From positions 360,875-424,874 of the forward strand of contig LCHW01000001.1 of NCBI GenBank assembly GCA_001000675.1: a stretch of DNA of 64,000 nucleotides, given 5' to 3'. The DNA comes from Candidatus Wolfebacteria bacterium GW2011_GWE2_44_13. Its GTDB lineage: Bacteria > Patescibacteriota > Minisyncoccia > UBA6257 > UBA9933. Positions 11,932 through 55,144 of the stretch are shown one piece after another (position 1 is the stretch's first letter; each line of letters starts with the position of its first letter). Made by a program: the position numbers and the translations under genes. Under the pieces are notes generated by a model. The model was not told the DNA's origin and searched no databases. It worked only from the letters and a program-made list of their open reading frames with translations.

Positions 11932-13569
11932 ATGAGTAAAAAAGCAGTATTTTCTAATATTCAAAATAACTGGAAGTCTGGTTTAACGGTTGCGCTTGTT
12001 GCGCTTCCGCTATCACTTTCGCTCGGCGTTGCCGCAGGTGCTACGCCGCTTATGGGCGTTATTACCGCTATTTGGGCAGGTCTTATTGCTGCCGTGTTTG
12101 GCGGAAACAATTATAACGTCGTTGGCCCTACGGGAGCACTTTCTGGAATCCTTGCAACATATGCGCTTATGTATGGTGCGGCCAGCTTGCCGTTTTTGGC
12201 AATTTTAAGTGGAATCATTATTCTTATTTTTTATGCATTGCATTGGGAGCGCTATATTGTGTTTATCCCTGCGAGCGTAGTGCATGGGTTTACACTTGGT
12301 GTTGCATTTATTATTGGATTAAATCAATTAAACTTCGCGCTTGGATTAACGGGCTTGCCTAGCCATGAACGATTTTTTGATAATGTTATCGAATCTTTTT
12401 CGCATATTGGAGAGACGAGTTTGGTTGCTGTCGTGTTATTCGCAATCGCCTTGGCTGTAATTATTGCATTACGGAAATATACACCTCGTATTCCTGGGGC
12501 TATCGCGATTGCGCCGTTCGGTATTTTAATTGGATGGCTTGCTGAGCGGGGGACTATCACACTCCCAGTGCAAACAATTGCATCAAAGTTCGGTTCTATT
12601 CCGAATGCAATTGCGAGTATACCGCATTTTTCTTTTGCAATGATTGGACAGGGAGCGATTGTTGCGGCACTTACTATTGCTGTTGTTGCAATTCTTGAAA
12701 CATTGATGTCGGCAAAAATTGCTGACGGAACAACAAAGACAAAGTCGGATCAGCGCAAAGAGGTTTTTGGACTTGGTCTTGCAAACATAGCTTCGGGTAT
12801 GTTTGGAGGTATACCAGCAACCGCTGCACTTGCGCGTACATCGCTTAATATTAAGAGTGGGGCAACGCATAAAACATCGGCTGCCATTGCATCGATTGGG
12901 GTTGTTGTTATTGCGCTTGTTTTATTGACCGGATTCCAGTATTTACCGTTGGCATTTGTTGCCGCGATTCTTGTTTCTGTTGCTTTGTTTATGGTTGAAC
13001 GCGAACATTTTATTCATTTATATCGTTATGATAAAAAAGTTTTTGGTCTTGCGCTTGTGGTCGCGGGCATTACAATTGTTGAAGATCCAATTATCGGTAT
13101 TCTCGTGGGTTCGGTTGCTGCACTTTTAATGTTCGTCAATACGCTTTCGTTTGCAGAAAGTGAGGTTACGATTAACAAAGGAGGAGCTATTGTTGGCAGG
13201 CATCGTTCCGATGAGCTAGAAGAACTTGAGGATCATGGTGATATTCTTGTGTATCGATTTGCGGGGCAATTGACCTATATTAATTCGCAAGGGCACTTAC
13301 AGTCATTGGCACATATCAGACCAGAAACAAAGATAATCGTATTGAGTTTCCGCAACCTCTTTTACATTGATATCGACGGCGTCGATTCAATTACTGAAAT
13401 GATAGAGATGCTTGAACAGAACGGAAAGACGGTATATTTGTCGAGTGTAAATCAACATGTGCGGACGGTTGTTAGCCAGGCGCCGTGGTATGCACGCATG
13501 AAGCAGGAGGGGCGCAAGTTCGAATCTGTTTCACAGGCACTTAAACAGCTCACTGCTGAAACGAAATAA
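11932..13569 (+). CDS. SulP-family anion transporter with a C-terminal STAS domain.
   Basis: Multi-TM core with SulP-like motifs, and a STAS-like C-terminus (ILVYRFAGQLTYINS...LSSVNQHVRTVV). Confidence 0.75.
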   Translation: MSKKAVFSNIQNNWKSGLTVALVALPLSLSLGVAAGATPLMGVITAIWAGLIAAVFGGNNYNVVGPTGALSGILATYALMYGAASLPFLAILSGIIILIFYALHWERYIVFIPASVVHGFTLGVAFIIGLNQLNFALGLTGLPSHERFFDNVIESFSHIGETSLVAVVLFAIALAVIIALRKYTPRIPGAIAIAPFGILIGWLAERGTITLPVQTIASKFGSIPNAIASIPHFSFAMIGQGAIVAALTIAVVAILETLMSAKIADGTTKTKSDQRKEVFGLGLANIASGMFGGIPATAALARTSLNIKSGATHKTSAAIASIGVVVIALVLLTGFQYLPLAFVAAILVSVALFMVEREHFIHLYRYDKKVFGLALVVAGITIVEDPIIGILVGSVAALLMFVNTLSFAESEVTINKGGAIVGRHRSDELEELEDHGDILVYRFAGQLTYINSQGHLQSLAHIRPETKIIVLSFRNLFYIDIDGVDSITEMIEMLEQNGKTVYLSSVNQHVRTVVSQAPWYARMKQEGRKFESVSQALKQLTAETK

Positions 13570-38466: not shown

Positions 38467-41400
38467 ATGAAAGAGAAAAAACCTATCATAAAAACACCCG
38501 CTTCAGATAATCCGTACGAGGTCTTTCTTTCGCCGGAAAAACTTGCAGAGAAGCGTGCAAAGCAAGCGGAATTGGCGCGCGCCGAGGTGGCAGAGCAATC
38601 TCAAGAAGAAGTGGAGCAACCACAACAACTAGTGACAACTACAGAAGAATCGATGGAAGAAACAAAAAGCGAAACAATCGTACGTGAACAAACCGTTGCG
38701 GATGCTGAATCGTTTACGCCGGAGGAGAAAAAAATGACCGCTACGGAAATGCGGGAAGCGCGCGAACGTGAAGAGGAGGGAATCGCCGCGCTTGCGCAGG
38801 ATCTTTTTGAAAAACGTATGCAAGGCCATGGGGCAGAAATGGTTGACGCAATATTGATAGAAAATGGGATTACGCCCTGGACTCCCGAAGCGGAGGAGTT
38901 TATGCGCAAATGGGATTGGGAGCAAGCAGCGGCAAAACTCGCTCCTATTGAACAGGATCGACAGACAGCGATTGAGCAGGTCAATGGAATTGAACCGAAA
39001 AAGCTTATTGAGTTATCTGAGAAAGAAGAGGGTGTTATTGCTGTGCAGCTCGCTCAATTTAATATGCAGCCCGCTGACTTAGAGCAGATAAGCGGATTTG
39101 ATACATTGTCCTATGGGCAACGACTTCTTGTGATTGAAAATTTGCGACAAGCTACGCTCGGGCGCATTCAAGAGGAGGCTACTGACAGGCATCGTGCTGA
39201 AGTTGCTGGTGCTGCATGGTACGGTAAAATTTGGCGTAATGCATTTTCTAAATTACGTATTGCGAAGCATGAAAAAGAGACTGCACAAGAAATAATGCAA
39301 GGTGGGCTAGCGCATCATCGAGAGGTGCTTGCGCAACTAACAACGGGCGCAGAAAATATGGGCCTCGATGTTCTTGTTGAAAAAGACGGCTCGTTGACGG
39401 TTCAATATTTAGGAAAAAATGAATTATTGAGCCCAGCTGAACAAGAGCAGGTGGCTAAGTTTAATACTGCTGCTCAAAAGTTTAGCACCGTTCCCGCTGA
39501 GTGGTCGTTTGCACCTGAAGGATCAAAAGAATATAAGGAATATACAAAAGCATTTCAAGAATTCGATCAATTTAAGCGAACGCTCCTCGCTACGGAAGGA
39601 AATATTTTTGGCGAGAAGAACGCGATGCATGCGATGTCCAACGCAGATTTTAAGATTCGCAGTAATCAATTTTTTAATACGCACCCTGATGCAATGAAGG
39701 AGTTGGTTGCGATTAAGTCCGACGCAATTTGGACTCGTGGACTAGGGGATATGTTTAAGGAGCGTGGAGCGCAAACATCCCTTGGGTATATTGGACGCGC
39801 CATGGGTGCGAGCTTGCTTGGGAAAGCAGCTGCATTACCTATTGTTGGAGGGGTTATTGGTATGTTTATGGCGCGCAAACGCGCGAAGGAGTCATTGCAT
39901 ACGCAAGAACGACAGATGCGCGGCGGAAAAAATGTTGATGCGCGTTTTGCGGATATGATGTACACCACTGTTCCTGCTACTACGCTCGGCGAAAAGCTTG
40001 AACGTGCATTACATGCTGTTTCTACGAGTGAGCCAGATTCAGAACAACACAAGAAAGCGCTTGCAACACTACGTGCGCGTCTTGAGTATAGTCAATTTAA
40101 ACTGGAAGAAGGGCGGATTGATTTCGGAAGTCGCGAAGTGCATACAGGCAACCAATATGATCTATTTGATAAAATAGGCGCTGGTTTTGCATTGCTTGAA
40201 CAAACTGCTATTACGGACGAATTGGAAAGTGAAGAGAAGGCGGGTAAGCGATTTAATCGGCTGGATAAAATGTTCACTGCGGAACAAAATACGGTAGAGG
40301 ATTTGCGACGCATATATAAAAATAAAGAGATGCTCAAGGGTATGGCGATTGGGGCTACCTTTTCTATCGTTGGTTATCTTATTGCCGATACGCTTGCGGG
40401 CACTGGAAATGCGCATGCAGCAACCGGACCGGAGAGTGTGCCTGCAATTAAAAAATCCATCAATCTAGCCGGCGAACCGGGAGCGCATACTGCGCGAGTT
40501 AACGGTGTCGCAGGCGCTGTTGGAAAAGTTGCTGCGCTGTCTTCAGTTGGGGAAAAGGTAGGAGGTGGGGTGGCGAATGTGGCTGCTACTGAGTCTGCTT
40601 CACTAAACTTTGTTGAAGGTGGCAATATCGCAGCTGCAACGACTGAACAAAGCGAGATAAGCGGCGCAGGTGCTGCAGGGAAGGTTGCCGCATTGTCGGC
40701 AGTTGGAGAGCAGGCGAATGTGGCTACCCCTGAATCTGCACCACTAAATTTTGTTGAGGGTGGTAATATTGCAGCTGCGCAAGAAACTATCCCGACCGTT
40801 GCGACTATTGGTGCGCGCGGCGCAGAGGGTTCGATTATTGATACGTTGAAAACAAACCCTGAACTTGCGAAAAAACTTGGATGGGACGGCGTGACCGATC
40901 TAAAAGAGTGGTCTGGTAAGGAAGCGCACGCGCTTTGGCTTGCTGATGCAAAAGAGCAACTTGCAAAGCCAGAGATGATCGAGAAATTAAAAAATGCAGG
41001 GTATACGCCTGATGCAAAGGGCTATGCGGAAGCTATGCAACATATTGCGAAGGGTTCAATTGCAATTGACCCCATTACAAAGACGATTAATTTAGAGAAT
41101 ATCGAATTTGTTAAAGCTCGCGTTACCGTGATCCCTTCAGTTGTGCCAGTGGAACAACCTGTTGCCGCCCCACAAATTGTGAGTGGGCATGCAGTAGAGG
41201 ATAGTCTTCCTAAGACGGCTATACCTGTAGCTGTAGCTCCGCAAATCGTTGGTGGGAGTGAAGCTGTCGCTGAAGCCGTAGCCCCGCAAATTGTAAGTGG
41301 AAGCGCTGTTGAAACAGTTACTGCTCCTGCCCCTACTGCAGAAGCTGAACTAACAAAAACAGAAGCTGTCACAAGTGCACCTGTAAATAAGGAAGCTGTT

Positions 41401-41760
41401 GCAGCGCCAAAGTCACCCGTAGTTGCTCAAGAGTTAGTTGCAACGCCAACATCCGAAATACTGCATTCTTCTGCGCCTATCGTAAACCCAGAGCGAATTG
41501 CCCTTTTGGAGGCTAATATCAATACTGATCGTACAAACGCAGCATCGCATATCGTTGACCATTATAAAGCTGGAGATATAACTGCACAAGATTTTACGGC
41601 ATATTATGCTGGAATGGTAAACGGAGTTCGTAATGATGAACAAACAATTACGCGTGTGCAACAGTTGTTCCAGAGTGTAATAGCAGGAGCAAGTCCAGAA
41701 ATTAAAACCAATGCAATGGGGGAGTTAACGAAAATTGTTAAACAATTGCAAAAAACTTAA
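38467..41760 (+). CDS. Giant (1097 aa) hypothetical envelope protein: acidic coiled-coil N-terminus, central TM segments, and internal tandem repeats.
   Basis: E-rich N-terminus. Hydrophobic segments around residues 440-470 and 620-640. Duplicated block roughly 130 bp long (40480-40790, GKVAALSxVGE..NVA..ESAxLNFVEGGNIAAA), and a triple APQIV[SG]G repeat around 41150-41310. Confidence 0.5.
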   Translation: MKEKKPIIKTPASDNPYEVFLSPEKLAEKRAKQAELARAEVAEQSQEEVEQPQQLVTTTEESMEETKSETIVREQTVADAESFTPEEKKMTATEMREAREREEEGIAALAQDLFEKRMQGHGAEMVDAILIENGITPWTPEAEEFMRKWDWEQAAAKLAPIEQDRQTAIEQVNGIEPKKLIELSEKEEGVIAVQLAQFNMQPADLEQISGFDTLSYGQRLLVIENLRQATLGRIQEEATDRHRAEVAGAAWYGKIWRNAFSKLRIAKHEKETAQEIMQGGLAHHREVLAQLTTGAENMGLDVLVEKDGSLTVQYLGKNELLSPAEQEQVAKFNTAAQKFSTVPAEWSFAPEGSKEYKEYTKAFQEFDQFKRTLLATEGNIFGEKNAMHAMSNADFKIRSNQFFNTHPDAMKELVAIKSDAIWTRGLGDMFKERGAQTSLGYIGRAMGASLLGKAAALPIVGGVIGMFMARKRAKESLHTQERQMRGGKNVDARFADMMYTTVPATTLGEKLERALHAVSTSEPDSEQHKKALATLRARLEYSQFKLEEGRIDFGSREVHTGNQYDLFDKIGAGFALLEQTAITDELESEEKAGKRFNRLDKMFTAEQNTVEDLRRIYKNKEMLKGMAIGATFSIVGYLIADTLAGTGNAHAATGPESVPAIKKSINLAGEPGAHTARVNGVAGAVGKVAALSSVGEKVGGGVANVAATESASLNFVEGGNIAAATTEQSEISGAGAAGKVAALSAVGEQANVATPESAPLNFVEGGNIAAAQETIPTVATIGARGAEGSIIDTLKTNPELAKKLGWDGVTDLKEWSGKEAHALWLADAKEQLAKPEMIEKLKNAGYTPDAKGYAEAMQHIAKGSIAIDPITKTINLENIEFVKARVTVIPSVVPVEQPVAAPQIVSGHAVEDSLPKTAIPVAVAPQIVGGSEAVAEAVAPQIVSGSAVETVTAPAPTAEAELTKTEAVTSAPVNKEAVAAPKSPVVAQELVATPTSEILHSSAPIVNPERIALLEANINTDRTNAASHIVDHYKAGDITAQDFTAYYAGMVNGVRNDEQTITRVQQLFQSVIAGASPEIKTNAMGELTKIVKQLQKT

Positions 41761-41919: not shown

Positions 41920-42831
41920 ATGAGAAATTCATGGATTGTGTTGGCCCTGATGCTTGCAGTCGCAACTTTAACTGGTTGCGCTGCTACTAAGGATCGGATT
42001 GTGTACGTCGCCTATAACCCAGCGCAAGTTGGGCAGGCGGCTGTACAGCAACCACAACCGTCTCAACCCGCTGCAGCGGCGCCGCAGAAAGAAGTGCCGC
42101 GGTATGCAGCACCTGTTCCAGGGCGGCACTATCTCGACATCGGGGTGAACCCGGTTAACGAGAACCGGCCACTTGGCCCGGGTGAGAGACTCCTCACATT
42201 GGCTGAGGACGCTGAAGTTGTCACGCAATCACGGAAGGGGACAATCTCTCGAGGTTGGCTGCGCGCTGGCGAACAGGTGTTCGCCGTACTGGCGTCAGAC
42301 CCGAGATATTGGGAGGTTGTGGCAATTAAACGCTGTGGCAATCCGATACTGAATCGGGCCCACGGTGTGGGACCGGTCTGGATTCTGGAAAACAAGCCAG
42401 CGCCGGTTGCTCAGCCCGTTGTTGCTCCGCCGCCTGCGGCAGTGAAGGCACTTCCTCCCGTAATTGTGGGGGGGCAGCAGGCAGGGTTGACGTTCTATCA
42501 GCCCGCGGGCGAAGAACCTGTGCCCCTCTGCGAAGGCAAAGACCGGAGCAGGTGGGGGCCGATCATTGGAGGCTTGCTTGGCCTGGGGGTTGGGGTTGCG
42601 ACTCATAATCCGCTACTCGGCCTAGCCATTTCCGGTGGCGGGTCACTTGCTGGAGCATACAGCGATGGGTGCATCGACCCGAACGATGCCATGATAGCAT
42701 TGTTTTTCGCTGGAGCGGGGTACGGCTTAACGCAGCCTTCCTCTAGTGGGGGCGGTGGAAGCAATTCCGGCGGCCCCGCGCAGCTTCCTGGTAACGGGGG
42801 TGGCGGCCCTGGGGGTGTCCCGGGGGGCTAA
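41920..42831 (+). CDS. Gly/Pro-rich lipoprotein; strongly GC-elevated.
   Basis: Signal peptide plus lipobox LTGC. By eye the GC is around 60%, against the low 40s of the host. A GC-rich terminator ggaggggtgacttgttcgcccctcc follows. Confidence 0.5.
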   Translation: MRNSWIVLALMLAVATLTGCAATKDRIVYVAYNPAQVGQAAVQQPQPSQPAAAAPQKEVPRYAAPVPGRHYLDIGVNPVNENRPLGPGERLLTLAEDAEVVTQSRKGTISRGWLRAGEQVFAVLASDPRYWEVVAIKRCGNPILNRAHGVGPVWILENKPAPVAQPVVAPPPAAVKALPPVIVGGQQAGLTFYQPAGEEPVPLCEGKDRSRWGPIIGGLLGLGVGVATHNPLLGLAISGGGSLAGAYSDGCIDPNDAMIALFFAGAGYGLTQPSSSGGGGSNSGGPAQLPGNGGGGPGGVPGG

Positions 42832-47050: not shown

Positions 47051-48898
47051 ATGGGTATTTTTAATCTCAAATCAGAATATGAGCCATCGGGTGACCAACC
47101 CGAAGCAATTAAGCAATTAACAGACGGACTTGATCGAGGAGATCGGTTTCAAACGTTGCTTGGTGTTACTGGCTCGGGAAAGACTTTTACGATTGCTAAC
47201 GCAATACGGCATTTTGATAAGCCGGTTCTTGTGATTGCGCCCAACAAAGCATTAGCTGCACAGCTGTATCGCGAATATAAAAATTATTTCCCCGAACATT
47301 CGGTAAACTATTTTGTTTCTTATTACGACTACTATCAGCCCGAGGCATACATGCCAAGTAGCGATACGTATATTGAAAAAGAGGCGATGATCAATCAAGA
47401 AATCGATCGATTGCGTCACCAGGCGACATCTGCACTATTAACTAGAAAAGACGTTATTGTGGTTGCGTCTGTTTCGTGTATTTATGGACTTGGCGTACCG
47501 ACAAATTATTTTGCATCGGCGATTCATTTAGCGGTAGGGCAATCGATTACGCGAAGAGACCTTATTAGTCAATTAATAAAAATTCAATTCAATCGGACCT
47601 CTGGCGTATTAAAACGAGGCGAATTTCGTGTGCGAGGGGATGTGTTTGAGATCATGCCCGCATCTGCAACAATGAGCTATGCAATTGAGCTTGGGCCAGA
47701 TCAGATTATTTCCGATATCGCGATTGTTGACCCTGTTACGCGAACCATGATCGATCATCCGAAAGACGTGGCCTTGTTTCCTCCGAAGCATTTTATTTCG
47801 AGTGCGCCGGCCATTGAACGTGCGGTGAAAGATATCAAAATCGAACTTGATGACCGATTGGAATATTTTGAAAAGCATAAGCTGTATCTTGAGGCACAGC
47901 GACTAGAACGACGCGTGCGGTATGACATGGAAATGTTGAAGAGCCTTGGTTTTTGCCATGGTGTCGAAAACTACTCGCGCCACCTAAGCGGAAAGCTTGC
48001 AGGAGAAGCGCCTGATACGTTGCTCGACTATTTCCCGCGTGATAAAGATGGGAAGCCAGACTTTTTGCTTGTCATGGATGAATCGCATATTGGCGTGCCA
48101 CAGGTGCGTGGCATGTATGCGGGCGATCGGAGTCGCAAAGACACGCTTGTGAAATACGGCTGGCGATTGCCATCGGCGATGGATAATCGACCGCTCCAAT
48201 TTAGTGAATTTGAACAACGTATTGGTCAGACATTATTTGTTTCTGCTACGCCAGGGGCGTGGGAGATTGAACATTCGACAACTGTTGCAGAACAGGTTAT
48301 TCGACCTACCGGGTTAATAGATCCGCCGATCGAAGTACGCCCTGTATTTAATAAGGAAACAAACCGAAGTCAAATTATTGATGTTATTGAGGAGCTACGT
48401 TTAATCGTGAAGAAAAAAGAGCGTGCGTTAGTCATTACGCTTACGAAGAAGCAAGCAGAAGATTTGCACGATCATTTTACGCAAGAAGGATTTAAGTCTC
48501 GCTATATTCACTCTGAGGTTAAGACGTTGGAACGAACGGAGATATTGATGAATTTTCGAAAAGGTGAGTTCGATGTATTGATTGGTGTTAACCTATTGCG
48601 TGAAGGTTTGGACTTACCGGAAGTTACTTTGGTTGCAATTTTAGATGCCGATCGAGAAGGATTTTTGCGTAGCGAAACCTCGCTTATTCAGACCATGGGA
48701 CGCGCTGCGCGCAACGTGAGCGGAACGGTTATTCTGTATGCGGATAAGATAACGGGCTCAATGGATCGAGCAATGAAGATTGTCGAGAAGCGCAGGAAGC
48801 TGCAGGCGGCGTATAACAAGAAACATGGCATTACGCCAAAGACCATTATTAAAACGATTGAACGGATGTTGGATTTTAGTGGGGCGGCTGAGGAATAA
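47051..48898 (+). CDS. uvrB: Excinuclease ABC subunit B (short, 615 aa).
   Basis: LLGVTGSGKTFTIAN and the helicase motifs. Confidence 0.9.
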   Translation: MGIFNLKSEYEPSGDQPEAIKQLTDGLDRGDRFQTLLGVTGSGKTFTIANAIRHFDKPVLVIAPNKALAAQLYREYKNYFPEHSVNYFVSYYDYYQPEAYMPSSDTYIEKEAMINQEIDRLRHQATSALLTRKDVIVVASVSCIYGLGVPTNYFASAIHLAVGQSITRRDLISQLIKIQFNRTSGVLKRGEFRVRGDVFEIMPASATMSYAIELGPDQIISDIAIVDPVTRTMIDHPKDVALFPPKHFISSAPAIERAVKDIKIELDDRLEYFEKHKLYLEAQRLERRVRYDMEMLKSLGFCHGVENYSRHLSGKLAGEAPDTLLDYFPRDKDGKPDFLLVMDESHIGVPQVRGMYAGDRSRKDTLVKYGWRLPSAMDNRPLQFSEFEQRIGQTLFVSATPGAWEIEHSTTVAEQVIRPTGLIDPPIEVRPVFNKETNRSQIIDVIEELRLIVKKKERALVITLTKKQAEDLHDHFTQEGFKSRYIHSEVKTLERTEILMNFRKGEFDVLIGVNLLREGLDLPEVTLVAILDADREGFLRSETSLIQTMGRAARNVSGTVILYADKITGSMDRAMKIVEKRRKLQAAYNKKHGITPKTIIKTIERMLDFSGAAEE

Positions 48899-48986
48899 TT
48901 TCTTTTGTCATTCCCGCCCTTCGGCAGGCTCAGGGTAAAACTCTGGCGGGGATCTATCCTATTTTAAAAAGCGTCTTTTCTTTCCA

Positions 48987-49008
48987 CTTTTTTTATAAAA
49001 AGTGGAGT
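48987..49008. repeat. A/T palindrome preceding copy 3 of the dispersed repeat.
   Basis: ccactttttttataaaaagtgg. Confidence 0.35.
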
Positions 49009-49045
49009 AAAAAATCGCGAGCTAATAAAAATAGCGGAATGTTCT

Positions 49046-49196
49046 CAGAAATTGCTTACGAACTCGAGAACTCGCCGTTGGTACGGCTCAGACAGCTCGA
49101 TTTCTGTGGCAATTTTTCCTCGACCATTTCATCCGCTATTTTCACAGGCTCGCACATAAGACTCAGCGCCCTTAATCCGAAATATTTCCATGTTCG
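49046..49196 (+). repeat. Dispersed structured intergenic repeat, copy 3 (diverged).
   Basis: The 3' end agcgcccttaatccgaaatatttccatgttcg closely matches copies 1 and 2; upstream similarity is patchy (ctcgagaactcgcc, ctcagacagctcgatttct, atttttcc). Confidence 0.45.
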
Positions 49197-49243
49197 TAAA
49201 TAAGGGAACATAGCGGATATATAAAAAATAAAAAGCCGGGAAA

Positions 49244-49268
49244 ATCCCGGCTTTGGTAAAACATTCGC
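49244..49268. terminator. Palindromic intrinsic terminator; the T-run is stronger on the - strand.
   Basis: aaaaagccggg-aaaat-cccggcttt, with tttttatttttt on the reverse complement. Confidence 0.5.
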
Positions 49269-49269
49269 T

Positions 49270-49600
49270 CGCCCCGAGCCCCTTTGATAATCCCGGCACC
49301 TGACGCAACCTGCGCGGTTTCCTCCGGTTATTTCTCCCAAGTAAGGGGTGGTATCTCATACATGGCTCCGCCTTAACCGGAGTTAAGGGTTCACAGCCTC
49401 CCACCTAGCCTGCGCGGTACTTTTGTCTCGGGGGCAAAACAGGGTGGAGTTGAACCACCAAGCGGTGGACTCATGCATTCCCAAGGGCGCCTGCAGTATC
49501 AGGCGATGTCGGGGTCGGCATTACTGCGAATCCGGTGCTGTCCAGTTCAGTCCCAGGGCGAGCGAAACTGATATCAATGTAACTGCAGGTATCGTATACT
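49270..49600. ncRNA. Candidate structured ncRNA (about 330 nt, GC-rich, ORF-free). Could be RNase P RNA or another housekeeping RNA; class and strand unresolved.
   Basis: No ORF of 60 aa or longer on either strand. GC is well above the surrounding sequence. Long-range pairing between ttcgctcgcccc (49263-49274) and gggcgagcgaa (49557-49567). Multiple internal hairpins (ccacc-aagc-ggtgg, ctccggttaaggcggag). There is weak resemblance to RNase P CR motifs. Confidence 0.35.
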
Positions 49601-49664
49601 GGGTACATGTAATAGTCAATACATTGACAAGGTCGTGGTTTACTGGCATAAGTAAGTACTATAT

Positions 49665-52169
49665 ATGGAAGACAAGATAAAGATTAAGGGCGCTCGCGTC
49701 CACAATTTAAAAAATATTTCATTGGAACTACCAAAGAATAAATTGGTGGTTTTTACGGGTGTTTCGGGAAGTGGAAAATCATCCCTTGCGTTTGATACTA
49801 TTTTTGCCGAGGGACAGCGACGGTACATTGAGTCTCTTTCTCCATACGCACGGCAATTTCTTGGGCAGATGGAACGTGCTGATGTTGATGAGATTGTGGG
49901 CTTATCTCCGGCTATCGCAATCGACCAACGTGCGCTTTCGCATAACCCGCGCTCAACTGTTGGAACGCTGACGGAAATTTATGATTATTTTCGTATTCTT
50001 TATGCGCGCCTCGGGGATGTGCATTGTCCGCATGACGGCACTAAAATTGAGAAACTCTCTGTTGATGAAATGATCGACATCATTGCGACACGTGCAAAGA
50101 AGGCAAAGCAAAGCGTTGTCACGGTTATGTCTCCCGTAGTGCGCGGACGGAAAGGGGAGTTCTATCAGCAGTTGTATGATTTTCTTGCGCTTGGGTTTTC
50201 TCAGGTGCGTGTTGATGGCGTTATGCACTCGCTTCATGACAAAATAGAGCTTTCGCGCTACAAAGAGCATTCTATTGATTTAGTAATCGACAAGGTGCTG
50301 CTTACAGATACTGCACGTTTACACGAAGCAGTTGAAGGAGCGCTTGATCACAGTAAGGGGCTCGCGACTATTTTAATGGGAGAGCAAAGCGAATCTCCTG
50401 AAGAGTTCATGCTTTCTTCGAAGTGGACCTGTCCGCTCGATAACTTTGTGTTTCCGGATATTGAACCTCGATTGTTTTCGTTTAATAGTCCGCATGGTGC
50501 TTGTGATACGTGTTCAGGATTAGGGAAGACCGACTTGTTTTTGAAGACTATTTGTCCGGATTGTAAGGGGAAGCGGTTGCGTTCGGAATCGTTATCCATT
50601 CGAATAAATGGGAAAAATATTTATGAGGTTGCTTCTATGACCAATGCGGAAGCGCATGCATTTTTTGAGGCGTACGAGAAAAAAATGACCGAACGAGAAA
50701 AGACCATCGCAGCTAATGTAGTTAAGGAAATCAAAGACCGATTGCATTTTTTGCTTGAAGTGGGGCTTGATTATTTAACTATGACTCGCGAAGCAGAAAC
50801 GTTGTCTGGTGGAGAAGCACAGCGTATTCGACTTTCTTCACAAATTGGATCACAACTTTCCAATACATTGTATGTGCTCGATGAGCCAACAATTGGTTTA
50901 CATGAGCGCGATACCGATCGTCTGGTGGGCATTCTTAAGGTGCTTAAAGAACAGAACAACACTGTTATTATTGTAGAACACGATGAAATGACTATTTTGG
51001 AGTCTGACTTTTTAGTTGACTTTGGTCCGTTTGCTGGAAAACATGGCGGAGAAATTGTTGCCGTTGGTGAAACAGCGAAGCTGCTAAAGAATCCAGGAGA
51101 GATGAATTCAATGACCATACAGTATCTTCGTGATGAACGAAAAATCGTTGTTCCAGAGCGTAGGACAAAGGTGCAAGAAAAACTTTCCATTGTCGGTGCT
51201 ACTGCACACAATTTAAAAAACGTGAATGTCGATATTCCATTGCGTAAGCTTGTATGCGTTACGGGTGTTTCGGGGAGCGGTAAATCTACGCTTATTCAAG
51301 ATGCGCTGTATGAAAATCTAAATTCGCTAAAGGCTCGTATGAACGAACCCCTTATTGGTGTTGCGGATATTACTGGGTCGGAATATATTGATCGTGTTGT
51401 TGCGGTAAACCAGGCACCGATTGGACGAACTCCTCGATCTAATCCAGCTACTTATACCGGCATCTTGACCCCCATCCGTGAATTCTACGCGCAATTACCA
51501 GAAGCGCGAGAACGTGCCTATACGGCATCGCGTTTCTCATTCAACGTTGCAGGAGGACGATGTGAATCATGTCAGGGAGCAGGGCATAACTTAATCGAAA
51601 TGCATTTCTTGCCGCCAGTACTTGTGCAGTGTGAAGTGTGTCATGGAAAGCGATATAATCGTGAGACATTACAGGTAAAACATAAGAAGAAAAGTATTAG
51701 CGATGTGCTTGCTATGACTATTGACGAGGGTGCCGAATTTTTTGACGGCATTTATCAGATTACTGATAAGCTAAAAGTATTGCAGTCGGTTGGACTTGGC
51801 TATTTGCAACTTGGACAAAGCGCAACAACACTTTCTGGCGGAGAAGCGCAGCGTATTAAGCTTGCACGTGAATTAACGCATCCGCTCGGAAAGCGTGTGT
51901 TGTATCTTTTGGATGAGCCTACGGTTGGATTGCATTATTACGATATTGAATTGTTACTAACGGTATTAAATAAGCTTGTAGATAAGGGGCATTCCGTGGT
52001 TGTTATTGAGCATAATATGCACGTTATTAAGTCGGCCGATTATGTTATTGATCTTGGCCCAGAAGGCGGTGCACGTGGCGGGGCAATTGTTGCAAAGGGC
52101 ACACCCGAAGAAGTTGCGGCAAATAAACATAGCATTACGGGGAGCTACCTGAAACATTTTTTGAAATAG
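49665..52169 (+). CDS. uvrA: Excinuclease ABC subunit A (short, 834 aa).
   Basis: Two ABC modules ([14 protein letters not shown] and [11 protein letters not shown]), LSGGEAQRI signatures and Zn-finger Cys clusters. Confidence 0.9.
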
Positions 52170-53515: not shown

Positions 53516-53878
53516 CTAACTTCCTCTGCGACAACCACAAGCCCCGGCCATATTCATTGAAAACTCGGAACATACCTTGGGGACGATACCTGTTGCAGGA
53601 GTTGTTGTTATATATGTAGCAACCACTTCTTCCACAGAGGCTAGGCGCTCTCTATGCTTTCCCAACTCATCCGTATCCCAGAAGACGAGTCCTTTTTGCG
53701 GGCTAATTTTATAGCTGGTATAGCTATAAGAGCGTCCTGGTTGTGGGAGGAGAGTAATAGTGACGAAGCTGCGAATACTCTCTAGCCCGCGCTGGATTAC
53801 CCTGTAACGTTCACTTTGCAAAAATTCTTTTAGCTGTCGTAGCTCAGATTCGTAACTTATCTCTTCCATAACGCACAT
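53516..53878 (-). CDS. Hypothetical protein.
   Basis: 120-aa ORF between the transporter and uvrC; no motif recognised, and the C-terminal extent is doubtful. Confidence 0.3.
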   Translation of the reverse strand: MCVMEEISYESELRQLKEFLQSERYRVIQRGLESIRSFVTITLLPQPGRSYSYTSYKISPQKGLVFWDTDELGKHRERLASVEEVVATYITTTPATGIVPKVCSEFSMNMAGACGCRRGS

Positions 53879-53932: not shown

Positions 53933-55144
53933 ATGTCAACGTTATCTGATCGTGTAAAGTTGTTTCCGGATAGTCCGGGGGTGTACCGATTCCTCGATGC
54001 TAATGGGGCTATTTTGTATATCGGGCGGGCAACGTCATTGCGCAAGCGGGTGAGTCAATATTTTACAAAGCGCATTGATGAGCGCATCGCCGAAATGGTT
54101 TCATTGGCGCGCGAGGTGCGGTATGAACAAACCGATACAGTGCTCGAAGCTATTATTCTTGAGGCAAATTGTATTAAAAAGCATTGGCCTAAATACAATG
54201 TAAAAGATAAGGACAATCGTTCGTTCTTATATATTGTTATTCCAAAAACTGATTATCCGAAACCGCTCATTGTGCGACATCGAGAATTGGAAAAATTTTC
54301 TGCAGTAAAGGCACACATTTTTGGACCCTATCAAAGTGCTACGTTGATAAAAAATGCGCTAAAAATTATTCGGCGTGTTTTTCCGTATGGAACGTGTGTG
54401 CCTAATTCTGGCCCCGTAAAGTCGCCGGCTGGCGACCACGTGGCAAGCAAACCCTGTTTTGATTATCAGATAGGGTTATGTCCTGGTGTTTGCGTTGGGG
54501 CGATCTCAAAGAAGGATTATCAAAAAAATATTAGTAATATTGTTTTGCTCTTATCGGGGAAGCGAGAACTTCTTTTAAAACGTCTTGCAAAAACGTTTCC
54601 AGAAAAAGCTGCAAGCTTGAAACATATCCAAGATGTGTCATTGATCACGCGCGATGAATTAACACAAGAACAAACAGAAGCACATCGTATTGAAGGGTAT
54701 GACATCTCCCATCTTACGGGTAAAGAAACGTATGGATCTATGGTTGTATTTACCGATGGAGAACCTGATAAAGAACAGTACCGCTCCTTTAGCATTAACA
54801 ATGCTGCGGCAAGCGATGATTTGCACGCGCTGGAGGAAATGGTTATTCGTCGATTCCGGCACACCGAATGGGATATGCCCGATTTAGTTATGATTGATGG
54901 AGGGAAGCCGCAGGTAGATCACATTGCGGGCGTATTTAGGCGACATAATATTGTCATTCCAATCGTGGGTATTTCAAAGTATGCAGGAGATTCGCTTGTA
55001 TTTCCTTTGGGCATAAAAGCATCGATGCGAGATCTTGCTCGCAGTGTAAAGCCAATATTATTGCGTGTTCGCGATGAAGCGCATCGTTTTGCATTACGCG
55101 CAAGCCGTCGCAAGCGAGATAGTCGCATTCCTAAGCTGCGATAA
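53933..55144 (+). CDS. uvrC: Excinuclease ABC subunit C, truncated form (GIY-YIG plus endonuclease V-like domain, no C-terminal HhH).
   Basis: GIY-YIG motif GVYRFLDANGAILYIGRA...LRKRV, and the RNase H-like domain EGYDISHLTG. Confidence 0.75.
   Translation: MSTLSDRVKLFPDSPGVYRFLDANGAILYIGRATSLRKRVSQYFTKRIDERIAEMVSLAREVRYEQTDTVLEAIILEANCIKKHWPKYNVKDKDNRSFLYIVIPKTDYPKPLIVRHRELEKFSAVKAHIFGPYQSATLIKNALKIIRRVFPYGTCVPNSGPVKSPAGDHVASKPCFDYQIGLCPGVCVGAISKKDYQKNISNIVLLLSGKRELLLKRLAKTFPEKAASLKHIQDVSLITRDELTQEQTEAHRIEGYDISHLTGKETYGSMVVFTDGEPDKEQYRSFSINNAAASDDLHALEEMVIRRFRHTEWDMPDLVMIDGGKPQVDHIAGVFRRHNIVIPIVGISKYAGDSLVFPLGIKASMRDLARSVKPILLRVRDEAHRFALRASRRKRDSRIPKLR

What the first reader, a model, noticed from the sequence alone, without database searches (positions are those of the whole stretch)
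49270..49600. GC-rich, ORF-free structured region of about 330 nt between uvrB and uvrA: candidate housekeeping ncRNA
This is one of the few stretches with no ORF of 60 aa or longer in any frame. Its GC is clearly above the local background, as is typical of structured RNAs in AT-rich genomes. The ends pair over about 11 bp (ttcgctcgcccc with gggcgagcgaa), forming a P1-like closing helix. There are many local hairpins, and a terminator hairpin at 49244-49268 would end a minus-strand transcript. The size and terminal helix suggest RNase P RNA. Loose matches to RNase P conserved regions were noted: AGGGUG followed by a hairpin, and ...ACUCCACCC on the reverse strand. However, I could not place a convincing P4. 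A T-arm-like element (GGTGG-TTCAACT-CCACC on the reverse strand) is internal rather than 3'-terminal, which argues against tmRNA.
Basis: partly seen in the sequence, partly recalled or inferred. Interest (0 to 1): 0.55.

Follow-up and report, generated by a model that had tools for sequence, protein, structure and literature searches.

The report
Small RNA mimicking ribosomal L1 stalk
The gap between uvrB and uvrA in this Wolfebacteria (CPR) genome holds a conserved, independently transcribed small RNA of about 350 nt that is not RNase P or tmRNA; it carries a close copy of the 23S rRNA "L1 stalk" next to a tRNA-like T-arm, a combination I know of in no described bacterial RNA.

Summary
A GC-rich (56% vs 44%) structured region lies between uvrB and uvrA, closed by a 14-bp terminal helix and followed by a strong minus-strand terminator. 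It is a minus-strand RNA gene, about 49586 to 49223, with a conserved sigma-70-like promoter.

RNase P, tmRNA, SRP and 6S are not supported: no covariance-model or ARAGORN hit, no P4/CR-I, no acceptor stem or tag.

Restricting Rfam to the element gave one strong local match. Positions 49422-49339 (minus) align to bacterial LSU rRNA positions 2129-2212, the L1 stalk H76-H78 (44.2 bits, E 3e-12). The homologue in L001 repeats it at 43 bits. A canonical T-arm hairpin sits just upstream.

Only three distinct versions were found, all in one small Wolfebacteria clade. They keep 80-100% identity in the core, while four-fold sites of uvrA are saturated. Eleven base pairs show compensatory changes. Sister genomes lack the RNA at this locus, so it looks accessory rather than housekeeping.

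Its class (Paceibacteria/OD1-L1) is reported to lack protein uL1. My best reading is therefore an L1-stalk decoy or platform that docks the tRNA elbow. That function is inferred, not shown.

The parts
49614..49619 (-). -35 hexamer TTGACT of the RNA's promoter. It sits back to back with the -35 TTGACA of uvrA at 49625-49630 (+).
   Evidence: Promoter scan. TTGACT is invariant, with a 17-18 nt spacer, in window, L001 and L084, although neutral sites are saturated. One match alone is not above chance: 1 found against 1.8 expected.
49591..49596 (-). -10 hexamer TACGAT (TATGAT in L001). The predicted transcription start is near 49586-49584.
49568..49586 (-). Conserved 5' leader GCAGUUACAUUGAUAUCAG, upstream of the closing helix.
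   Evidence: 81-97% identity over alignment columns 5-35, which also include the 5' strand of P1. Function unknown.
49553..49566 (-). 5' strand of the closing helix P1 (UUCGCUCGCCCUGG).
   Evidence: 14 pairs, all kept in the three sequences. Thirteen are invariant, so there is almost no covariation support. The G-U pairs form only on the minus-strand RNA.
49460..49552 (-). Variable 5' domain, including a long hairpin at 49480-49513.
   Evidence: 34-68% identity. The hairpin shape is kept, with compensatory changes between window and L084 and a different sequence in L001.
49443..49459 (-). tRNA-like T-arm: 5-bp stem and 7-nt loop UUCAACU (UUCGAAU and UUCGACU in the homologues).
   Evidence: The third pair is U-A, U-G or C-G. 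It matches only the T-arm of the beta_tmRNA model, at 8-10.6 bits.
49432..49440 (-). Tentative 5' strand (GUUUUGCCC) of an extension of the stalk helix. It would pair with 49330-49338 across a 9-nt bulge (49423-49431).
   Evidence: RNAalifold. 95.7% of cells are paired, with one-sided changes only and one broken cell. An alternative local hairpin, UUUUG/CAAAA, is also compatible.
49339..49422 (-). L1-stalk mimic. H76-like stem 49417-49422 with 49339-49344. T-loop 1 at 49406-49416. H77-like stem 49401-49405 with 49347-49351. Block 49364-49398 holds a k-turn-like GGC/UGAA...GGA/GCC motif and an H78-like hairpin. T-loop 2 at 49352-49363.
   Evidence: Rfam LSU_rRNA_bacteria positions 2129-2212, 44.2 bits, E 2.8e-12. 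L001 gives 43 bits. blastn hits E. coli 23S rRNA. Both-sided changes: H76 4 of 6 pairs, H77 1-2 of 5, H78 5 of 6.
49330..49338 (-). GGGAGAAAU, the tentative 3' strand of the stalk extension.
49279..49329 (-). Conserved 3' domain. A CCGG/CCGG helix (49324-49327 with 49293-49296) encloses AGGAAA, a small hairpin and UCAGGUG. It is followed by GAUUAUCAAAGGGG.
   Evidence: 78-90% identity. The helices are kept. No Rfam match.
49264..49277 (-). 3' strand of the closing helix P1.
49222..49254 (-). Intrinsic terminator: 10-bp hairpin at 49254-49232, then a U run.
   Evidence: It is present in all three homologues, with stem changes that keep pairing.

Best explanation
This is a stand-alone small RNA gene on the minus strand, about 360 nt from roughly 49586 to 49223. 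It has its own promoter and terminator.

The RNA is closed by a 14-bp terminal helix. From the central junction it projects a variable 5' hairpin domain, a canonical T-arm hairpin, a long arm that copies the L1 stalk of 23S rRNA (H76-H77-H78, including the two T-loops of its head), and a conserved 3' domain.

Shown: the gene structure, the rRNA mimicry, the covariation and the purifying selection.

Inferred: the RNA works as a molecular mimic of the ribosomal L1 stalk and binds a ligand of that stalk in trans. The class this organism belongs to is reported to lack protein uL1. The head nucleotides that stack on the tRNA elbow in the ribosome are kept in all three versions, while H78 is free to change. 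The most likely ligand is therefore the elbow of a tRNA, as in the L1 stalk, T-box stem I and the RNase P specificity domain. The conserved 3' domain and the T-arm would supply further contacts or an effector function.

The RNA is accessory, not essential. I put the identity claim (an ncRNA with an L1-stalk mimic) at about 0.9 and the tRNA-docking mechanism at about 0.35-0.4.
For: - Rfam local hit to the L1 stalk of LSU rRNA: 44.2 bits, E 2.8e-12. It is repeated in L001 at 43 bits, and blastn independently hits E. coli 23S rRNA.
- Nearly all highly conserved consensus positions are kept: G.G.AG..UAG..GGGAGGC, GGAG..CC and UGA.A.ACC.
- The equivalents of G2112 and A2169 are present in all three versions (the numbering is from my own knowledge).
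- On my curated structure, 95.8% of cells are paired and 11 pairs changed on both sides. No shuffle out of 500 reached these values, and sliding the partners drops pairing to 39-51%.
- The G-U pairs fit only the minus strand.
- Four-fold degenerate sites of uvrA are 29-48% identical between the three genomes. P1, the T-arm and the 3' domain are 78-100% identical.
- Promoter hexamers and terminator are conserved.
- Paceibacteria/OD1-L1 lack rplA but keep H78 (PMC12641178, PMC5220378, PMC9297842).
- Only 7 of 47 genes in the window have a Shine-Dalgarno-like motif. [quoted passage not shown]
Against: - No binding or expression data exist.
- There are only three distinct sequences, so covariation statistics are weak, and part of the structure was derived from these same sequences.
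- The LSU hit appeared only when the search was cut to about 340 nt. It was missed at 901 nt, lies below the family's gathering score of 50 bits, and is absent for L084, where the k-turn motif is changed and a hairpin is inserted.
- Absence of uL1 in this genome was not checked directly. The placement of Wolfebacteria in Paceibacteria is from my own knowledge.
- No conserved element that could read a tRNA 3' end or anticodon was identified.
- The repeated loss at this locus in close relatives means the function is dispensable or the gene has moved.
Confidence: 0.4

Rival explanations
1. Protein decoy. The L1-stalk copy titrates ribosomal protein uL1, or whatever protein occupies the L1 stalk in this lineage. 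It would act like the autoregulatory L1 sites in rplKA (bacteria) or L1 (archaea) mRNAs, but in trans.
For: The GGGAGGC / GAGAUACC core is what uL1 recognises on both rRNA and mRNA (established knowledge). It is kept in all three versions. rRNA mimicry for r-protein binding has clear precedent.
Against: The class is reported to lack rplA (PMC12641178, PMC5220378). No r-protein gene lies nearby. The mimic is far larger than known L1 mRNA sites. In L084 the H78 base and k-turn, part of the uL1 site, are altered.
Confidence: 0.2
2. Architectural reuse. The L1-like three-way junction and the T-arm are only folding or assembly modules. For example, the T-loop of one molecule might dock on the L1-like head of another, building a multimer. 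The RNA's real activity would lie in the conserved 3' domain and would be unrelated to translation.
For: The most conserved parts are P1 and the 3' domain, not the stalk. The T-arm and stalk are adjacent helices that could stack into a rod with a T-loop at one end and a T-loop receptor at the other (inference).
Against: No functional clue for the 3' domain and no associated protein gene. The fidelity to rRNA consensus nucleotides is higher than a mere scaffold needs.
Confidence: 0.18
3. A piece of the ribosome encoded in trans. The 23S rRNA of these organisms has lost or weakened its L1 stalk, and this RNA supplies it.
For: Local homology to H76-H78. CPR rRNAs are unusual (PMC9297842).
Against: Paceibacteria are reported to retain H78 (PMC12641178). 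The rest of the RNA is not rRNA-like. Relatives with 91-96% identical UvrA lack the gene at this locus.
Confidence: 0.05
4. A very divergent housekeeping RNA: RNase P RNA with an L1-like module in place of its specificity domain, or a permuted tmRNA.
For: Size, a terminal helix and an internal T-arm. CPR RNase P RNAs are divergent and often missed (PMC8172020). The 3' string UCAGGUGCCGGGAUUAUC loosely resembles CR-V, ACAGAAnCCGGCUUAUC (my reading).
Against: No RNase P, tmRNA, SRP or 6S hit at E <= 10 in three 340-390-nt searches. No long-range P4: the CCGG strands are about 30 nt apart. The CR-I position falls in the least conserved stretch. No acceptor stem with G3-U70/CCA and no conserved tag frame. 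Lost from the locus in close relatives.
Confidence: 0.03
5. A non-functional relic: a scrap of 23S rDNA or a decaying mobile element with terminal inverted repeats.
For: Presence/absence polymorphism in the uvrB-uvrA gap. Terminal inverted repeat.
Against: Single copy in the window. No viral or repeated copies. 78-100% identity in core blocks while neutral sites are saturated. Compensatory changes. Conserved promoter and terminator.
Confidence: 0.04

Closest known systems
L1 stalk of bacterial 23S rRNA (helices H76-H78, Kt-77/78, interdigitated T-loops)
   Same: Local sequence-and-structure match at 43-44 bits. It has the same three-way junction, the same conserved loop nucleotides and a k-turn-like GGC-UGAA/GGA-GCC motif.
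   Different: It is not part of an rRNA gene. It is embedded in a roughly 350-nt transcript with its own promoter and terminator, and the rest has no rRNA similarity. In L084 the H78 hairpin is longer, the k-turn motif is changed and an extra hairpin is inserted.
Autoregulatory uL1 binding sites on mRNA (E. coli rplKA leader; Methanococcus L1 operon mRNA)
   Same: rRNA mimicry of the L1 site (GGGAG ... ACC core).
   Different: Those are short cis elements in the mRNA of the regulated r-protein operon. This one is a full stalk copy on a trans-encoded RNA between DNA-repair genes, in a lineage reported to lack uL1.
tRNA-elbow docking modules: T-box stem I distal platform and the RNase P specificity domain
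   Same: They use the same double T-loop architecture as the L1 stalk to stack on the tRNA elbow (established knowledge). This is the basis of the proposed mechanism.
   Different: No T-box features: no specifier, no antiterminator and no downstream gene. No RNase P catalytic core. Here the module is a sequence homologue of the rRNA version, not merely a structural analogue.
tRNA-mimic RNAs with a T-arm (tmRNA, bacterial Y RNA YrlA)
   Same: A canonical T-arm (G-C closed 5-bp stem, UUCRANN loop) inside a larger non-tRNA transcript.
   Different: No acceptor stem, CCA, tag frame or Ro-binding stem was recognised. Only the 17-nt hairpin matches a tmRNA model, at 8-10.6 bits.
drum RNA (RF02958) and other orphan terminator-ended sRNAs of Weinberg et al. 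2017
   Same: A stand-alone, highly structured RNA ending in an intrinsic terminator. A sub-threshold match was seen in L001 (14.6 bits, E 2.4).
   Different: Far below the gathering score of 43 bits, and absent for window and L084. I attribute the shared letters to the k-turn-like motif (inference). No DUF3800-type gene is nearby.

Membership tests
Bacterial RNase P RNA (RF00010/RF00011) | Covariance-model match | tested here: not met
   No hit at gathering score, nor at E <= 10 on 343-, 341- and 386-nt searches of the three homologues.
Bacterial RNase P RNA (RF00010/RF00011) | Long-range P4 helix formed by CR-I (GGAAAGUCC) and CR-V (ACAGAAnCCGGCUUA) | tested here: not met
   No CR-I string. 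The region after P1 is the least conserved, at 34-68% identity. The only CCGG/CCGG helix is local, with strands about 30 nt apart.
Bacterial RNase P RNA (RF00010/RF00011) | Essential single-copy gene kept in all relatives | tested here: inconclusive
   Absent from the uvrB-uvrA gap in L002, L082, L083, L092 and L093. Whole genomes could not be searched, so relocation is not excluded.
tmRNA (standard or permuted) | Detected by ARAGORN or an Rfam tmRNA model | tested here: not met
   One search found none. Relaxed ARAGORN gives inconsistent noise on both strands. Only the T-arm hairpin matches beta_tmRNA, at 8-10.6 bits against a gathering score of 84.
tmRNA (standard or permuted) | Acceptor stem with G3-U70 and a 3' (A)CCA next to the T-arm; conserved tag reading frame | tested here: not met
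   The sequence after the T-arm is CUGUUUUGCC. No complementary GGG... strand is supported by covariation (reading). Candidate frames are not conserved between homologues.
SRP RNA / 6S RNA | Covariance-model match | tested here: not met
23S rRNA gene (LSU_rRNA_bacteria RF02541) | Match reaching the gathering score and extending over the rRNA | tested here: not met
   Only model positions 2129-2212 of 2925 match, at 44.2 bits against 50. It is a mimic or derived copy of one domain, not an rRNA gene.
23S rRNA L1 stalk (as a structural module) | H76/H77/H78 three-way junction with the conserved T-loop nucleotides | tested here: met
   Covariation in H76, H77 and H78. L084 keeps H76, H77 and the loop nucleotides but has a remodelled H78 region.
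uL1 autoregulatory mRNA leader | Located in the 5' UTR or mRNA of rplK/rplA and bound by uL1 | tested here: not met
   Divergent from uvrA and convergent with uvrB, with its own terminator. No L11 or L1 motif in the window. uL1 binding is not testable here.
T-box riboswitch | Stem I with specifier, an antiterminator/terminator switch, and a downstream aminoacyl-tRNA-related gene | tested here: not met
   No Rfam hit. No gene lies downstream on the minus strand before uvrB, which converges.
drum RNA (RF02958) | Covariance-model match at the gathering score | tested here: not met
   14.6 bits against 43, in L001 only.
MITE / non-autonomous IS element | Multiple copies with terminal inverted repeats | tested here: not met
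   Single copy in the 64-kb window. No other copy in 93 related loci.

The most novel reading that the evidence does not exclude
A new class of trans-acting RNA that has captured a whole functional domain of the ribosome, the L1 stalk, and joined it to a tRNA-like T-arm. In a lineage that has lost protein uL1, it would dock tRNA elbows off the ribosome, sensing, sequestering or handing over deacylated tRNA. Alternatively it would self-assemble head to tail through T-loop/L1-head contacts. Either way it would be the first free-standing rRNA-domain mimic with a tRNA-directed function.
Probability: 0.3. Interest if true: 0.85.

Novelty: new variant of a known kind. Interest (0 to 1): 0.62.

Why it matters
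rRNA mimicry is known only as short cis-acting sites that let ribosomal proteins repress their own mRNAs. The tRNA-elbow-docking double T-loop module is known in three settings: the L1 stalk, the T-box and RNase P.

A separately transcribed RNA that carries a sequence-homologous copy of the whole L1 stalk would be a fourth setting. It would also be a natural case of an rRNA domain being reused in a small RNA. The lineage involved is reported to have lost uL1 and mostly lacks Shine-Dalgarno sequences. It offers a concrete, testable handle on how the unusual ribosomes and tRNA traffic of CPR bacteria work.

Its limits are clear. It was found in only three closely related lineages, it appears dispensable, and its function is unproven.

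Tried and rejected
- **Rfam, broad searches:** the gathering-score search of the whole window gave only 4 tRNAs. The E <= 10 search of 48850-49750 gave only terminator-driven noise such as sraA and STnc430. The L1-stalk hit appeared only when the search was cut to the element itself.
- **ARAGORN:** default and relaxed runs gave no credible tmRNA or tRNA.
- **RNase P by hand:** I tried to thread P1/P4/CR-I/CR-V. The only resemblance is a loose CR-V-like string, and there is no long-range P4.
- **Permuted tmRNA by hand:** no acceptor stem and no conserved tag.
- **Synteny search:** 80 uvrA loci from GTDB species, plus 8 protein-guided contig look-ups that yielded 8 loci. Homologues were found only in L001/L081 and L084.
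- **Metagenome pattern scan** with a 3'-domain motif: 2 true hits, both identical to L001, and 3 chance hits in coding DNA.
- **Viral contig scans:** two scans, no hits.
- **Spurious-ORF search:** I searched the protein database with peptides translated from the RNA, hoping to catch wrongly called ORFs. It returned only two short contigs, one window-type and one L001-type.
- **MITE or repeat idea:** rejected; single copy.
- **uL1 check:** I could not verify the presence or absence of rplA, or the state of the organism's own 23S L1 stalk.
- **Brown et al. 2015** is not held in the paper library.

Full report
**Setting.** The window comes from a Candidatus Wolfebacteria genome (Candidate Phyla Radiation, Parcubacteria). 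Its UvrA is 93% identical to that of Wolfebacteria RIFOXYD12_FULL_48_21 (locus L001). It is 92% identical to that of the complete genome GW2011_GWB1_47_1 (L002). The finding lies between uvrB (47051-48898, +) and uvrA (49665-52169, +), both confirmed by Pfam. uvrC follows at 53933-55144.

**Check of the observation.**
- The region is GC-rich: 0.56 against 0.44 for the window.
- The two ends pair. On the minus-strand RNA this is a 14-bp helix, 49553-49566 with 49264-49277.
- A T-arm-like hairpin, GGUGG-UUCAACU-CCACC, sits at 49443-49459.
- A strong intrinsic terminator for a minus-strand transcript lies at 49254-49232 and is followed by a U run.
- A sigma-70-like promoter points the same way: TTGACT at 49619-49614, a 17-nt spacer, then TACGAT ending at 49591.
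- "ORF-free" is not strictly true. Three ORFs of 85-94 aa with TTG/GTG starts overlap the region. They have no Pfam match, and no frame stays open in the homologues.
- The fold energy of the minus strand is only modestly better than shuffles (z = -2.1).

**Is it a real, functional RNA?**
- *Homologues.* They were found in only two other lineages: L001 (also L081, L085 and L089; the latter two are identical to L001 over the element) and L084. In each case the element lies in the same place and orientation, just downstream of uvrB.
- *What is conserved.* The three versions share the promoter hexamers and spacing, a conserved 5' leader, the closing helix, the T-arm, a 3' domain and the terminator.
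- *Selection.* Between these genomes the four-fold degenerate sites of uvrA are only 29-48% identical, which is essentially saturated. P1, the T-arm region and the 3' domain are 78-100% identical. That is strong purifying selection and rules out a decaying relic.
- *Covariation.* On a curated structure of 56 pairs, 95.8% of cells are paired and 11 pairs changed on both sides. No shuffle out of 500 reached these values. Sliding the 3' partners by 1-3 columns drops pairing to 39-51%.
- *Strand.* Several G-U pairs exist only on the minus-strand RNA, which fixes the strand.
- *Caveats.* There are only three sequences. P1 is invariant, so covariation neither supports nor contradicts it. Part of the structure was derived from these same sequences.

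**What it is not.**
- No RNase P, tmRNA, SRP or 6S model matches. This holds at gathering score and at E <= 10 in searches restricted to the element in all three homologues.
- CPR RNase P RNAs are known to be divergent (PMC8172020), so I also threaded the sequence by hand. There is no CR-I. The stretch after P1, where P2-P5 should lie, is the least conserved part (34-68% identity). The only CCGG/CCGG helix is local.
- For tmRNA there is no acceptor stem, no CCA and no conserved tag frame.
- It is single copy and absent from viral contigs, so it does not behave as a MITE.

**What it is.**
- When Rfam was run on the 343-nt element alone, one strong local hit appeared. Positions 49422-49339 (minus) align to LSU_rRNA_bacteria positions 2129-2212 at 44.2 bits, E 2.8e-12. 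This is the L1 stalk, helices H76-H78.
- The broader searches missed the hit. It is below the family's 50-bit gathering score, and the speed filters are stricter on longer input.
- L001 repeats the hit at 43 bits. blastn independently hits the same part of E. coli 23S rRNA.
- The alignment to E. coli shows the conserved strings G.G.AG..UAG..GGGAGGC, GGAG..CC and UGA.A.ACC in all versions.
- By my reading of the standard numbering (own knowledge), these include the equivalents of G2112 and A2169. In the ribosome, that pair is the platform on which the elbow of E-site tRNA stacks.
- Covariation supports the H76-, H77- and H78-like stems.
- L084 has a longer H78-like hairpin, a changed k-turn motif and an inserted hairpin. 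This is why the model misses it. It keeps H76, H77 and both loop motifs.
- The weak drum and c-di-GMP-II matches in L001 fall on the GGC-UGAA/GGA-GCC motif. I read them as k-turn similarity, not family membership.
- The stalk may be lengthened by pairing of 49432-49440 with 49330-49338. This is tentative.

**Distribution.**
- A UvrA tree places L084 (RNA present) as the earliest branch of the clade and the window (present) next. L001 (present) is nested among L082, L092, L093, L083 and L002.
- Those five have only 0-200 nt between uvrB and uvrA and no trace of the RNA.
- The gene is therefore ancestral at this locus and was lost or moved several times.
- One metagenome scan found only L001-type copies. 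A search for wrongly called ORFs found only window-type and L001-type contigs.
- Together this points to a narrow, accessory RNA. Whole genomes could not be searched, so relocation is not excluded.

**Mechanism.**
- *Known ligands.* The L1 stalk has two well-known ligands: protein uL1 and the elbow of deacylated tRNA.
- *uL1 is probably absent.* The OD1-L1 group lacks uL1 (PMC5220378, PMC9297842). The GTDB class Paceibacteria lacks rplA yet keeps H78 (PMC12641178). Wolfebacteria belong to that class by my own knowledge.
- *Supporting trait.* Only 7 of 47 genes in the window have a Shine-Dalgarno-like motif, and many look leaderless. [quoted passage not shown] I did not verify the absence of rplA in this genome.
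- *Inference.* If uL1 is absent, a uL1 sponge is unlikely. The variable parts are H78 and the k-turn, while the head nucleotides are kept. The same double T-loop architecture docks tRNA elbows in the T-box and in RNase P (established knowledge).
- *Best guess.* The RNA is a free L1-stalk mimic that binds tRNA elbows, and the T-arm and 3' domain add contacts or function. I give this about 0.35-0.4.
- *Rivals.* A protein decoy (0.2), purely architectural reuse including self-assembly (0.18), a trans-encoded rRNA piece (0.05), a divergent housekeeping RNA (0.03) and a relic (0.04).

**Verdict.** The element is a previously undescribed small RNA of narrow distribution. It contains a faithful copy of the ribosomal L1 stalk beside a T-arm. 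It matches no Rfam family, and I know of no described counterpart. Its function remains to be shown.

Noticed in passing
window, all gene starts (e.g. 2340, 18238, 46307, 49665): Only 7 of 47 long ORFs have a GGAG/GAGG/AGGA motif upstream. Many have a TATAAT-like box 8-12 nt before the ATG, suggesting leaderless or SD-independent initiation. uvrA itself appears to start about 7 nt after its -10 box.
   Followed up: partly
window 48899-49230; L082 2799-3000; L084 1937-3000: The uvrB-uvrA gap is an indel hotspot among close relatives. The genes overlap in L002. The gap is 37-38 nt in L083 and L093, 100-200 nt in L092 and L082, 766 nt here, and about 1060 nt in L084, which also has an extra 134-aa ORF. 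The window's part next to uvrB holds long inverted repeats (49017-49038 with 49132-49153; 49049-49068 with 49096-49115). L082 has a different long palindrome in its gap.
   Followed up: partly
window 48971-49018: An A/T-flanked hairpin (CCACUUUUU...AAAAAGUGG) just after uvrB is conserved at 85% identity in L001. It is probably the uvrB terminator, possibly bidirectional.
   Followed up: no
window 12528-12614: ARAGORN calls an 87-nt tRNA-Asp with anticodon ATC inside the ORF 11932-13569. Rfam's tRNA model does not report it, so it is probably a false positive.
   Followed up: no
L081 4160-4837; L083 6892-7575: Two close relatives carry an IS200/IS605-type Y1 transposase gene after the MFS transporter gene downstream of uvrA. 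The window has only a 120-aa minus-strand ORF (53516-53878) at that place.
   Followed up: no
window 38467-41760 and 41920-42831: A 1097-aa ORF and the following 303-aa ORF have no Pfam domain at E <= 1e-5.
   Followed up: no
window 49614-49630: The -35 boxes of the RNA gene and of uvrA are back to back (AGTCAA-TACA-TTGACA). This forms a near-palindrome that is conserved in L001 (the two boxes lie further apart in L084) and could allow coordinated regulation.
   Followed up: no
L001 3647-3751: Sub-threshold Rfam matches to the c-di-GMP-II riboswitch (17.1 bits) and drum RNA (14.6 bits) fall on the GGC-UGAA/GGA-GCC motif of the L1-like arm. This hints that drum RNA may contain a similar k-turn-like module.
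   Followed up: no
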